Below, in pieces: positions 6,783-48,107 of a DNA stretch of 64,000 nt. The position numbers and the translations under genes are program-made. The DNA is from Thermoproteota archaeon (GTDB lineage Archaea; Thermoproteota; Nitrososphaeria; Nitrososphaerales; Nitrosopumilaceae): contig JBFLWI010000002.1 in the NCBI GenBank assembly GCA_040757675.1, forward strand, positions 55,217-119,216. Direction: 5' to 3'. Below the pieces are notes generated by a model that saw only the letters and a program-made list of their open reading frames with translations, ran no database searches and was not told the origin of the DNA. Every line of letters begins with the position of its first letter. The first letter of the stretch is position 1.

Positions 6783-7834
6783 TTTTCTATTCTTGCTATG
6801 GCTACGGTAAGGTCTGGTGGAAATTTCTGTTTTTCAACTATTAGCTTTCCATGAGAGCTCTTGATTGCGGCCGCTTCAGATACACTTGGTGTTCCTTCGA
6901 AAGCCTGCACCATGTCGGAAGGGTTTGGAATGCTGATCTTGGCAAGCTCCTCTCTTTGAAAATATTCTATGTCTAGTCCCATCTCTCTTGCAGCATCGAC
7001 CAGTCCAGGTACGTCCTGCGGTTTTTTGAGTGAGGCAAACCTTGCTAATGATTTTGGACTAAGCTTGTATGTAGAAAGACAAAACAGCACTGACTCGATT
7101 ATCTTTTCTTTAGTCGTATCTGCGTGAAGGCCTATTCCTGCAACAAGAGTCTTGGGCCTGTAAACGACGGAATTTTTTGTTAGATCCTCATCTAATATCT
7201 TGTCTGAAATCATCAAGTATGCCTTCGAATCAGAGCGCCTTAGTTCCTCAAGTGTCTCGTATATGGTCACGTTCTTTGGCAGCTCTCCTTTCCACCAATT
7301 CTTCTCACCAGAATCTTGATACACTCCGATTTTTTCTTCATTTACCATCATTGCGCTTATTCTAGTTACATTAGAGTCATCATCTATTTCCCAGCCAAAT
7401 TCTCTGCCAACCAAGTCAACTGGAATGGTCTTGTTTACATCTGCCGCAGTTGTGATGACGGCAGTTGCTCCAAGATTTTTGGCAATCTCTTCGGTCAACT
7501 CGTTTGCACCACCTAGATGACCAGAAAGAGCAGATATGACAAAGCCTGCCTTGTCATCGATCACAATTATCGCAGGATCTGTCTTTTTGTCTTTGAGATG
7601 AGGCGCAATCAGCCTAATTACGGCACCAAGAGAAAACAGGCATACAATACCGTCATAATTTCTGAAAAGTTCCGCAATCTTGAGTGCAGTTTGTTCCTCG
7701 TACCATATCGCGTCTGCTGATTCTGCCTGAAATTTTGATGGTGCATAGATCTGCCATCTTGGGAAAATCTGTTTTATGGAAGCTGCAATTTTTATTCCAT
7801 TTTTTGTAATTGCCAGAATTGCAACCTTTTCCAT
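6779..7834 (-). CDS. cbiG: Cobalamin biosynthesis protein CbiG
   Basis: GAVIRLIAP, DK.TDPA, LSGHLGGAN, VITTAAD, SVSEAAA; start taken at MEKVAILAIT (cat 7832-7834). Confidence 0.92.
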   Translation of the reverse strand: MEKVAILAITKNGIKIAASIKQIFPRWQIYAPSKFQAESADAIWYEEQTALKIAELFRNYDGIVCLFSLGAVIRLIAPHLKDKKTDPAIIVIDDKAGFVISALSGHLGGANELTEEIAKNLGATAVITTAADVNKTIPVDLVGREFGWEIDDDSNVTRISAMMVNEEKIGVYQDSGEKNWWKGELPKNVTIYETLEELRRSDSKAYLMISDKILDEDLTKNSVVYRPKTLVAGIGLHADTTKEKIIESVLFCLSTYKLSPKSLARFASLKKPQDVPGLVDAAREMGLDIEYFQREELAKISIPNPSDMVQAFEGTPSVSEAAAIKSSHGKLIVEKQKFPPDLTVAIARIEK

Positions 7835-32201: not shown

Positions 32202-32517
32202 GGTAGTAGCTCTGCTGGTTCCAGTCCAGACAGATAACCCCATCTCAAGGCGCACAAGATCCGCCACGTTGACGAAGTAGCGTGGGTACTTTGCCTTAGG
32301 ATTGCTCCCTCCCGGACCTCATCCATTTCGGCAATTCGACCTTGAGCGTTATCCCTTCGGACAATCTCAGACCTGTATCCACCCGCTTCGGCGTGATTTC
32401 ATTTCAGTACACCAAGCGGGAATTATCCATCTGGAGATTTATCCAGCAGTTACTGACCTCTGCATAGAGCCGGTTTCAGAGTAGGGCACGGCTAGCGCCC
32501 CGATCCTACCTACTACC
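32202..32517 (-). ncRNA. ffs: Signal recognition particle (7S) RNA
   Basis: Terminal helix GGTAGTAG...CTACTACC enclosing ~316 nt; helix-8 motif AGGTCC-GGGA-GGGAGCA (reverse complement of ~32303-32319); GC-rich Alu-like 5' end GGGGCGCTAGCCGTGCCC. Confidence 0.85.
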
Positions 32518-36692: not shown

Positions 36693-37100
36693 TTAAACAG
36701 TGTTGGTGTTTTCGAGATTCTTTTTCTTTAGATAGCTGTCGACCCACTCTGGAGTTATGACTCCGCCTTCTGCCAAGTTGACAAGCGAATTTGGTGATGC
36801 TTCGCCTGTCACCTTTCCGCCCTTTCTCCTTATTTGTCTCCACTTTAGTGTGGTGTTTCCGCTCTTTGAGTTGTAGATTATGCCCAAGACGTCGCGTGCG
36901 TTGACAAAGGTAATGTCTCGGATCTTCTTTAGGGTGACCTTGTCTGCTGCCTCTACGTATATTGAGCCCAGTGACTCTTCACGCTCTGGAAAGACCTCGG
37001 GGTCTTCGACGTAGCCGCGTGGAATGTATGAGCTGCACGTGCTTGCAATCACGAATCTTCTAAAACTTTCGAGTGATGCTGGTACGTCTATTGCCACCAT
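36693..37100 (-). CDS. Hypothetical protein (135 aa)
   Basis: Clean ORF with normal composition between pelota and the sRNA; no motif recognised. Confidence 0.75.
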   Translation of the reverse strand: MVAIDVPASLESFRRFVIASTCSSYIPRGYVEDPEVFPEREESLGSIYVEAADKVTLKKIRDITFVNARDVLGIIYNSKSGNTTLKWRQIRRKGGKVTGEASPNSLVNLAEGGVITPEWVDSYLKKKNLENTNTV

Positions 37101-37136
37101 TTCTTTTATGGGGTTTTTCTGACAATATCAAGCTTC

Positions 37137-37144
37137 TTTTAAAA
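37137..37144 (+). promoter_or_regulatory. TATA box TTTTAAAA upstream of the candidate C/D sRNA
   Basis: About 26 nt upstream of the sRNA 5' stem; palindromic, so it could also serve the divergent gene. Confidence 0.45.
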
Positions 37145-37169
37145 ATCCCCCTTGCCAATTATGATGCAG

Positions 37170-37227
37170 AGGCGTTGATGAGATTATCCCTTTGATCTTG
37201 ATGATGAAGATCTTGAGTTCTGAGCCT
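37170..37227 (+). ncRNA. Candidate box C/D guide sRNA
   Basis: AGGC stem - C TTGATGA (37175-81) - guide GATTATCCCT - D' TTGA (37192-95) - C' ATGATGA (37201-07) - guide AGATCTTGAGTT - D CTGA (37220-23) - GCCT stem. Confidence 0.75.
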
Positions 37228-37263
37228 TGAATATTTATGGGATGATGTGACTTTTCAAAATAC

Positions 37264-37683
37264 ATGAAGTCCCTGACAGAATATCTTACCTTTAACACCA
37301 AAACCAAGATCGCTTTTGTAAACATCACACCCCAGGTACGCCAACTAATTAAAAAAAGTGGAGTAAAAGATGGCCTATGTCTTGTAAACGCAATGCACAT
37401 TACTGCAAGTGTCTTCATAAATGATAACGAGTCTGGTTTGCACAAGGATTTTGCAAAATGGCTTGAGAAGCTTGCACCACACGAACCGATAAGCCAGTAC
37501 CAACACAATGACACAGGAGAAGACAACGCAGATGCACACCTAAAAAGACAGATAATGGGACGAGAGGTAGTAGTAGCAATAACTGACGGCGATCTTGATT
37601 TTGGGCCTTGGGAGCAGATTTTTTACGGGGAATTCGACGGCATGAGACCAAAAAGAGTTCTAGTCAAAATAATTGGCGAGTAA
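37264..37683 (+). CDS. yjbQ: YjbQ/UPF0047 family protein
   Basis: [39 protein letters not shown]. Confidence 0.92.
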
Positions 37684-47315: not shown

Positions 47316-48107
47316 GTGATGAACACATCCAAAATTAAAAATCTGGCGTTTAAAACTACAATCCGGTTAATTGGTAATAGGGGACTTTCGCGAAGCTTCT
47401 TAGGTCGAATTGTAAAAGAATACGCTGTACAAAATTGTAGGATAAATGAAATAACAATTAACGGTTATCGAATGATTTTGGATAAAGATGATGTTATGCA
47501 GATTTCACTGTTTCCTTACGAACCCATGGAGACTGAGATAATAAAAAAATATGTGCACGAACGGGATATAACAGTTGATGTAGGCGCTAATATAGGGTAC
47601 TACACCCTGCTTATGGCAAAATTAAAGGCTGTTGTGCACTCATTTGAACCAGAACCACATAACTTTGCACTATTAAAAAAAAATGTTGAGCTTAACCATT
47701 TTACAAATGTAATGTTACATAACAAAGCAGTATCGAACATCAATGGAAAAGCAAAATTCGTACTTGCTGATTATGGAACAGGACAACATAAACTTGGCAA
47801 TTCTAAGTTTGGTACTAAGACCATAGATGTTACAGTCACTACCATAGACTTAGAAGACATAGATTTTGCAAAAATCGATGTTGAAGGTGCAGAACTTCTT
47901 GTATTACAAGGAATGAAAACATTACCCAAAAAAATGATACTTGAATTTAATACGGAAAATCTCAAAGAACATGGAACAACACCTACAGAATTTTTTAATT
48001 TTGTGAAAAATTATTCTATAAAACAGATCACAAAGGATGGTTTAATAGAACCAAATTATGAAAAATTACTCGCCGATAAAATGGCAACAAATTTGTTTTT
48101 GTATTAA
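47316..48107 (+). CDS. FkbM-family methyltransferase
   Basis: DVGANIGYYT, SFEPEP, KIDVEGAE. Confidence 0.9.
   Translation: MMNTSKIKNLAFKTTIRLIGNRGLSRSFLGRIVKEYAVQNCRINEITINGYRMILDKDDVMQISLFPYEPMETEIIKKYVHERDITVDVGANIGYYTLLMAKLKAVVHSFEPEPHNFALLKKNVELNHFTNVMLHNKAVSNINGKAKFVLADYGTGQHKLGNSKFGTKTIDVTVTTIDLEDIDFAKIDVEGAELLVLQGMKTLPKKMILEFNTENLKEHGTTPTEFFNFVKNYSIKQITKDGLIEPNYEKLLADKMATNLFLY

What the first reader, a model, noticed from the sequence alone, without database searches (positions are those of the whole stretch)
37170..37227. Stand-alone box C/D guide sRNA with its own TATA box
Seen: canonical C-guide-D'-C'-guide-D layout in 58 nt with a 4-bp terminal stem and TTTTAAAA ~26 nt upstream. 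Established: archaeal C/D RNAs direct 2'-O-methylation at the base paired with the fifth guide nucleotide upstream of D/D'. Predicted target strings are AGGGAUAAUC and AACUCAAGAUCU. The first resembles conserved rRNA GGGAUAA segments (inference, not verified). The second could be an orphan guide.
Basis: partly seen in the sequence, partly recalled or inferred. Interest (0 to 1): 0.55.

Follow-up and report, generated by a model that had tools for sequence, protein, structure and literature searches.

The report
tRNA-Leu wobble methylation guide RNA
This is a real small guide RNA of an ammonia-oxidising archaeon, with no curated Rfam family, that almost certainly directs sugar methylation of the wobble base of tRNA-Leu(CAA), like the studied Pyrococcus guide sR47; its second arm has no settled target.

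Summary
The box C/D RNA at 37170-37227 is real. It is one of only three such layouts in this Ca. Nitrosotenuis-type genome (none in four random controls). Its boxes, terminal stem (compensatory changes) and upstream TATA-like box are conserved in 30 genus genomes. The D guide makes 10 Watson-Crick pairs with the anticodon loop of tRNA-Leu(CAA), and the N+5 rule lands on wobble C34. It is invariant in the genus and traceable across Thermoproteota. Relatives suggest the intron-bearing precursor is a substrate. The arm tied to rRNA GGGAUAA (D') pairs with only 8 bases of 23S. That is below the usual 9-pair criterion, is reached by 29% of shuffles, and drops to 6-7 pairs in most relatives. D' keeps an invariant 5-base core but its target is unresolved. 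In other lineages it matches a different 23S site or a pre-tRNA-Leu(UAA) intron. The scan has already reported the same Cm34 guide on other DNA (Asgard, Micrarchaeota). Expression and methylation were not shown here. Verdict: a new member of a known kind (sR47-like), of modest interest.

The parts
37137..37144 (+). TATA-like box TTTTAAAA, putative promoter of the sRNA
   Evidence: TAAAA at -28..-32 from the stem in 30/30 genus genomes, and it stays with the sRNA when the upstream sequence is replaced. Not shown experimentally.
37170..37173 (+). 5' arm of the terminal stem (AGGC)
   Evidence: (compensatory changes)
37175..37181 (+). Box C (UUGAUGA)
37182..37191 (+). D' guide, 10 nt; core AUCCC (positions 2-6 from D') invariant in 30 genus genomes; N+5 base is U37187; target unresolved
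37192..37195 (+). Box D' (UUGA)
37196..37200 (+). K-loop spacer, variable in length and sequence
37201..37207 (+). Box C' (AUGAUGA)
   Evidence: UGA invariant
37208..37219 (+). D guide, 12 nt, antisense to tRNA-Leu(CAA) positions 30/31-40 (or 30/31-37 plus the first three intron bases); N+5 base G37215 pairs with C34
37220..37223 (+). Box D (CUGA)
37224..37227 (+). 3' arm of the terminal stem (GCCU)
37234..37238 (+). Second TATA-like motif TTTAT, 30 nt before the ATG of the downstream UPF0047/YjbQ gene; suggests that gene has its own promoter
   Evidence: motif at -27..-30 in 16 of 17 genus loci parsed; for the gene family

Best explanation
An independently transcribed RNA of about 58-62 nt folds a K-turn (C/D) and a K-loop (C'/D'), binds L7Ae, Nop5 and fibrillarin, and uses its D guide to pair with the anticodon loop of tRNA-Leu(CAA), so that fibrillarin 2'-O-methylates the wobble C34 (Cm34). 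The intron-containing precursor is probably a substrate, because the guide pairs across the 37/38 junction with the intron's first three bases; here the spliced tRNA pairs equally well. The D' arm is most likely a degenerate or helper arm that does not direct a reliable methylation in this lineage. Shown here: layout, conservation, complementarity, presence of the three RNP protein genes. Inferred: transcription, RNP assembly, methylation, precursor preference.
For: The D guide pairs 10 WC + 1 GU with the single tRNA-Leu(CAA) gene (G000:C98:860-960, minus) and N+5 falls on C34. No rRNA site gives more than 8 WC. Only 35/3000 shuffled guides reach 10 WC in the 8.5 kb rRNA+tRNA pool. The guide is identical in 30/30 genus genomes while D' and the spacers vary. 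Its 15-mer with box D occurs once in 53/57 family genomes. A covariance model finds matches in 61/64 further order genomes, and the 30 best all keep the guide core. The core plus box D is in 121/301 phylum genomes against 6 for the reversed pattern. Guide position 2 is U where tRNA position 31 is A (10 phylum genomes and all order genomes seen) and C in two genomes with G31. In G492, G447 and G527 the mature tRNA mismatches guide position 10 while the intron start AUC matches. The intron starts AUC in 29/29 genus tRNA-Leu(CAA) genes listed. Fibrillarin, Nop5 and L7Ae-family genes are present. P. abyssi sR47 methylates C34 of tRNA-Leu(CAA) through its D guide in vitro (PMC3413156, PMC5558902). 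In Pyrobaculum about 80% of tRNA-targeting sRNAs have one guide without a target (PMC6009581).
Against: No transcript or modification data. G527 has guide C against tRNA C31, so the position-2 covariation holds in 2 of 3 cases. In G093 the intron starts ACC, so only the mature tRNA pairs fully, which argues against strict precursor dependence. The invariance of the D' core in the family means D' is not simply neutral. P. furiosus Cm34 on tRNA-Leu(CAA) is listed as predicted, and PMC7668247 does not state that it was detected on this tRNA.
Confidence: 0.87

Rival explanations
1. Dual guide: besides Cm34, the D' arm methylates 23S rRNA at the A of AGGGAUAAC in the peptidyl-transferase centre (about E. 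coli A2448; numbering from my own knowledge).
For: 8 contiguous WC pairs in this genome with a WC pair at N+5. The invariant positions 2-6 are all paired by this site, with 6-8 bp in six of seven other family genomes. The family-wide G-to-U change in the D' core removes a mismatch that other families have at this site. Eukaryotic snoR38 uses a similar guide core.
Against: Below the 9-bp criterion (PMC6009581), and 29% of shuffles do as well. Guide positions 8-10 pair with this site in only 8 of 33 cells over 11 distinct genus guides, and position 7 is a mismatch in 10/30 genomes.
Confidence: 0.2
2. The D' arm is a tRNA-binding arm. In this genus it pairs with the D-loop of tRNA-Arg isoacceptors (G18-G24, N+5 on A20), or helps dock precursors such as pre-tRNA-Leu(UAA), whose anticodon pairs with the D guide with a G-U at position 34.
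For: Distal guide positions 8-10 fit GUG, the tRNA-Arg 22-24 triplet, best of all 64 triplets (27/33 cells; post hoc, kin not independent). Across 12 phylum/order genomes, guide positions 6-7 match their own tRNA-Ile(GAU) D-loop better than permuted partners (p 0.008). In G028 the D' guide is 11/11 complementary to the start of the D-arm intron of its own pre-tRNA-Leu(UAA), and 8 bp in G057. The D guide pairs over all 12 positions with this genome's pre-tRNA-Leu(UAA), and no separate Leu(UAA) guide was found.
Against: In this genus the Leu(UAA) D-arm intron offers only 4-5 bp and the Met intron motif fits the ancestral, not the present, D' core. The invariant C at position 2 is unpaired with tRNA-Arg. 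Exact intron-motif patterns were not found in 10 other genomes. A WC pair at N+5 is described as essential (PMC6009581), which argues against Um34 through G-U.
Confidence: 0.22
3. Both arms act on SRP RNA, whose helix 6 region in this window pairs with D' (8 bp) and D (about 10 bp with G-U) side by side.
For: Adjacent matches are visible in the SRP RNA at 32204-32515.
Against: The SRP segment varies freely in 27 relatives while the D guide does not, and the match is lost even within the genus.
Confidence: 0.02
4. Chance arrangement of UGA-rich motifs in an intergenic promoter region, or a 5' leader element of yjbQ.
For: It folds no better than shuffles (z 0.27), which is expected for C/D RNAs without L7Ae. 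It lies 36 nt before yjbQ.
Against: Conserved far beyond yjbQ synteny: yjbQ is adjacent in 0/45 loci from other families and 0/29 phylum loci. Stem covariation, and a separate TATA-like motif for yjbQ.
Confidence: 0.01

Closest known systems
Pyrococcus abyssi box C/D sRNA sR47 (PMC3413156, PMC5558902; Nolivos 2005 and Clouet-d'Orval 2001 as cited there)
   Same: The D guide directs Cm34 of tRNA-Leu(CAA). The sR47 substrate oligo in PMC3413156 holds the same ACUCAAGAUC stretch. Same 12-nt D guide length and four-box layout.
   Different: Mesophilic to moderately thermophilic ammonia oxidiser; here the target tRNA has a 37/38 intron, whereas sR47 was shown on an in vitro transcript. I could not obtain the sR47 sequence, so common descent versus convergence is untested.
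Pyrobaculum position-34 guides sR26, sR27, sR45, sR46 (PMC6009581)
   Same: One guide targets a single tRNA at the wobble position, and the other guide often has no target.
   Different: Different tRNAs (Trp, Gln, Val, Thr); none listed there for Leu(CAA).
Haloferax sR-tMet and the pre-tRNA-Trp intron guide sR50 (sR50 in PMC7994747; sR-tMet from memory)
   Same: Wobble C34 methylation linked to an intron-containing precursor.
   Different: This RNA is a free-standing gene, not an intron, and has an ordinary K-loop.
Rfam RF00095 snoPyro_CD
   Same: Generic archaeal C/D layout; best Rfam match, 31 bits, E 9.8e-5.
   Different: Below the 45-bit gathering score here and in the relatives tested; no Rfam family specific to this guide was hit.

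Membership tests
Archaeal box C/D sRNA | C, D', C', D boxes in order with two spacers of about 10-12 nt, 50-65 nt long | tested here: met
Archaeal box C/D sRNA | Terminal stem and K-turn/K-loop-compatible pairing, conserved in homologues | tested here: met
   (95% paired, 32 two-sided changes); GA of D' and UGA of C' kept
Archaeal box C/D sRNA | Host encodes fibrillarin, Nop5 and L7Ae | tested here: met
Archaeal box C/D sRNA | Expressed as a discrete RNA and bound by L7Ae | not testable with these tools
   no holder on record as RNA; only contigs were available
sR47-type guide for Cm34 of tRNA-Leu(CAA) | At least 9 contiguous WC pairs of the D guide with tRNA-Leu(CAA), WC pair at N+5 on C34 | tested here: met
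   10 WC + 1 GU, N+5 = C34; criterion from PMC6009581
sR47-type guide for Cm34 of tRNA-Leu(CAA) | Guide conserved or covarying with the target in relatives | tested here: met
   invariant in 30 genus genomes; position 2 follows tRNA position 31 in 2 of 3 changed cases
sR47-type guide for Cm34 of tRNA-Leu(CAA) | Sequence homology to Pyrococcus sR47 outside the D guide (orthology) | not tested
   sR47 sequence not obtained (one search failed); no Thermococcales title among the 65 pattern hits, whose pattern required the TACK-type D' core
sR47-type guide for Cm34 of tRNA-Leu(CAA) | Cm34 formed in vivo or in vitro | not testable with these tools
   needs LC-MS, RiboMeth-seq or reconstitution
rRNA-targeting C/D guide (D' arm) | At least 9 contiguous WC pairs to rRNA with WC at N+5, conserved in homologues | tested here: not met
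   8 bp at best here, 6-8 in the genus
Rfam RF00095 snoPyro_CD | Score at or above gathering threshold (45 bits) | tested here: not met
   31.1 bits

The most novel reading that the evidence does not exclude
This is an ancient guide, kept across Thermoproteota and Asgard archaea, with a fixed Cm34 arm and a second arm that has switched partner by lineage. It matches a 23S site with covariation in several Thermoproteota families and a pre-tRNA-Leu(UAA) intron in some Nitrososphaerales. In Nitrosopumilaceae a new 5-6-base core acts as a docking arm rather than a methylation guide, possibly letting one RNA serve both UUR-reading leucine tRNAs despite a G-U pair at the target base.
Probability: 0.2. 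Interest if true: 0.62.

Novelty: new member of a known kind. Interest (0 to 1): 0.32.

Why it matters
Ammonia-oxidising archaea seem to keep very few C/D guides (three strict layouts in this genome), and my two full-text searches found no paper on their C/D sRNAs. That one of the few survivors targets the wobble base of tRNA-Leu(CAA), and is kept across most of the order and much of the phylum, points to strong selection on Cm34 outside hyperthermophiles. UUG is 18% of leucine codons in long ORFs here. It gives a precise, cheap prediction for tRNA modification mapping, and a family that Rfam 15 misses at gathering threshold. The mechanism itself is known from sR47.

Tried and rejected
Rfam at gathering: no hit at the locus. 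SRP RNA as target: coincidental, not conserved. D' as a mimic of the tRNA-Leu 3' anticodon strand: rejected, since family f7 and f19 keep AUCC in the tRNA while D' has AGCC. One 23S column for D' across all lineages: none found. The exact 10/10 genomic match to D' at C16:9167 lies inside an 801-codon open frame and has no further support. A separate Leu(UAA) guide: not found with the pattern used. Exact D' complements shortly before a tRNA T-arm: none in 10 genomes. Expression: no RNA holder listed; one run of guessed type has contigs over the flanking genes and none over 37090-37357, which is no evidence either way. The sigma-70 promoter scan is not suited to archaea. PMC92551 is not held, and no supplements are held for PMC6009581. 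Literature searches for Nitrosopumilus or Nitrososphaera C/D sRNAs and for Gm19 gave nothing. Two regex-based site extractions failed and were redone by alignment.

Full report
Observation. It lies between a divergent 135-aa ORF without Pfam match and a UPF0047/YjbQ gene. The closest named relatives of the neighbouring pelota protein are mostly labelled Ca. Nitrosotenuis. Rfam has no hit at gathering level; the best sub-threshold hit is the generic Pyrococcus C/D model. A strict scan of the 1.56 Mb genome finds three such layouts and none in four Markov controls. Fibrillarin, Nop5 and L7Ae-family genes are present.

Conservation. Thirty genus genomes carry the element with identical C, D' and D boxes and an identical D guide, while the D' guide, loop and flanks vary. 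The D-guide/box-D 15-mer occurs once in 53 of 57 family genomes. A covariance model built from 41 homologues finds matches in 61 of 64 further genomes at E<=0.05. The weakest are unchecked, but the 30 best all keep the guide core. The terminal stem shows 32 two-sided changes and 95% pairing, far above slid controls. At phylum level the guide core plus box D is in 121 of 301 genomes against 6 for the reversed pattern; one inspected hit (G311) was not a C/D layout. A pattern joining the ancestral D' core to the D guide gave 65 hits in the GTDB collection, all with archaeal titles, including Bathyarchaeia, Methanomethylicia, Nezhaarchaeales, Thermoproteales and two Heimdallarchaeota.

Stand-alone gene. 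TAAAA lies at -28 to -32 from the stem in 30 of 30 genus genomes, and it stays with the RNA where the upstream sequence has been replaced. The downstream yjbQ gene has its own TATA-like motif at -27 to -30 in 16 of 17 loci parsed, and is absent from the loci of other families. A separate transcription unit is therefore likely but not shown. No RNA data were available.

The D guide. It pairs with the genome's tRNA-Leu(CAA) gene on contig C98 over 10 Watson-Crick pairs plus one G-U, and the fifth base before box D (G37215) meets C34. This meets the nine-pair criterion of PMC6009581, and 1.2% of shuffled guides do as well against all rRNA and tRNA. No rRNA site competes. Guide position 2 is U where tRNA position 31 is A, and C in two genomes with G31; a third genome with guide C has C31, so the covariation holds in 2 of 3 cases. 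The tRNA has a 14-nt intron at 37/38 that begins AUC, the same three bases as positions 38-40, so precursor and mature tRNA pair equally here. The intron start is AUC in all 29 genus genes listed, while the middle of the intron varies. In three distant genomes only the precursor pairs fully, and in one (G093) only the mature tRNA does. I read this as the precursor being a usual but not obligatory substrate (inference). The same guide pairs over all 12 positions with pre-tRNA-Leu(UAA), but with G-U at the target base. A Watson-Crick pair there is described as essential (PMC6009581), so I do not claim Um34, although no separate guide for it was found.

The D' guide. Twenty-nine percent of shuffles reach 8. 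In the genus only positions 2-6 are invariant; position 7 mismatches 23S in 10 of 30 genomes, and positions 8-10 pair with it in 8 of 33 cells. Those distal positions fit best the tRNA-Arg D-stem triplet GUG (27 of 33, first of 64 triplets; post hoc, kin not independent). Other 5-6 bp fits exist, such as the T-arm of tRNAs with A54. Outside the family the arm reads CUCURGCCC or similar. In five genomes from four families outside the order it pairs over 9-11 contiguous bases (8-9 from position 3 onward) with one homologous 23S site just before GAACUCGGCAAAU, with guide position 7 following the rRNA base; Nitrososphaerales have changed that site and lost the match. The same arm also fits tRNA-Ile(GAU) D-loops, with own-versus-permuted p 0.008 over 12 genomes. 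Following a lead from earlier scan reports on Asgard homologues, I found that in G028 the arm is 11/11 complementary to the start of the D-arm intron of its own pre-tRNA-Leu(UAA), and 8 bp in G057. In this genus the same intron offers only 4-5 pairs, and exact intron patterns were not found in 10 other genomes. So the D' arm is under selection but its partner here is unresolved. My odds are about 55% degenerate or structural, 22% tRNA or precursor binding, and 20% 23S methylation.

Rejected. Both guides pair side by side with the SRP RNA in this window, but the segment is not conserved in 27 relatives. The other dead ends are listed under Tried and rejected.

Comparison and verdict. It works like Pyrococcus abyssi sR47, which methylates C34 of tRNA-Leu(CAA) through its D guide in vitro (PMC3413156, PMC5558902); such position-34 guides are reviewed in PMC7994747. 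It meets the sequence-testable features of an archaeal C/D sRNA and of a Cm34-Leu(CAA) guide. It fails the rRNA-guide criterion for D' and the Rfam gathering score; orthology to sR47 is untested. The scan has reported the same kind of guide in at least 13 notes on other genomes, which I treat as leads, not support. I found no paper describing it in ammonia-oxidising archaea. New member of a known kind; interest 0.32.

Noticed in passing
G000:C78:3076 (minus) and G000:C7:4307 (plus): The two other strict C/D layouts in the genome. The D guide of the C78 RNA makes 10 contiguous WC pairs with 23S rRNA (C10 position 1459); the C7 D' guide pairs 9 bases with 16S position 452.
   Followed up: partly
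window 32204-32515 (minus): Archaeal SRP RNA, about 5 kb from the sRNA; also nearby in several family genomes.
   Followed up: yes
G000:C1:216920-217024: ARAGORN calls this tRNA-Leu(CAA), but the sequence reads as tRNA-Gln(CUG) with non-canonical introns; the true Leu(CAA) is on C98.
   Followed up: partly
G000:C12:about 7545-7665 (minus): tRNA-Leu(UAA) with two introns (D-arm and 37/38), missed by ARAGORN; structure conserved in 18 genus genomes listed.
   Followed up: yes
G000:C42:4162-4310: Called Ser by ARAGORN, but looks like pre-tRNA-Trp with two introns, the second holding degenerate C/D-like boxes.
   Followed up: no
L417 (G028:C151:1660-1940): The D-arm intron of pre-tRNA-Leu(UAA) is only about 13 nt, and the 11-nt stretch at its start is exactly complementary to that genome's D' guide.
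   Followed up: partly
L267, L268, L269, L271, L272 (23S rRNA): A 23S site before GAACUCGGCAAAU covaries with the D' guide in four Thermoproteota families outside the order, a probable rRNA target of this sRNA family there.
   Followed up: partly
L181, L182, L277, L288 and others (23S rRNA): The peptidyl-transferase segment reads GGGGUAAC instead of GGGAUAAC in several Nitrososphaerales families, and GGGAGUAAC in some other Thermoproteota.
   Followed up: no
L114 (G054:C14, around 47334-47450): The homologue in G054 has about 50 extra bases between its D' and C' boxes, apparently with a second partial C' box.
   Followed up: no
window 36693-37100 (minus): 135-aa ORF with no Pfam match that stays next to the sRNA in 26/28 genus, 14/15 family and 28/45 other order loci.
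   Followed up: partly
G000:C4:31430, C8:15698, C14:about 19440, C106:1140: Several tRNAs (Arg isoacceptors, a CAU tRNA) carry A at T-loop position 54 instead of U.
   Followed up: no
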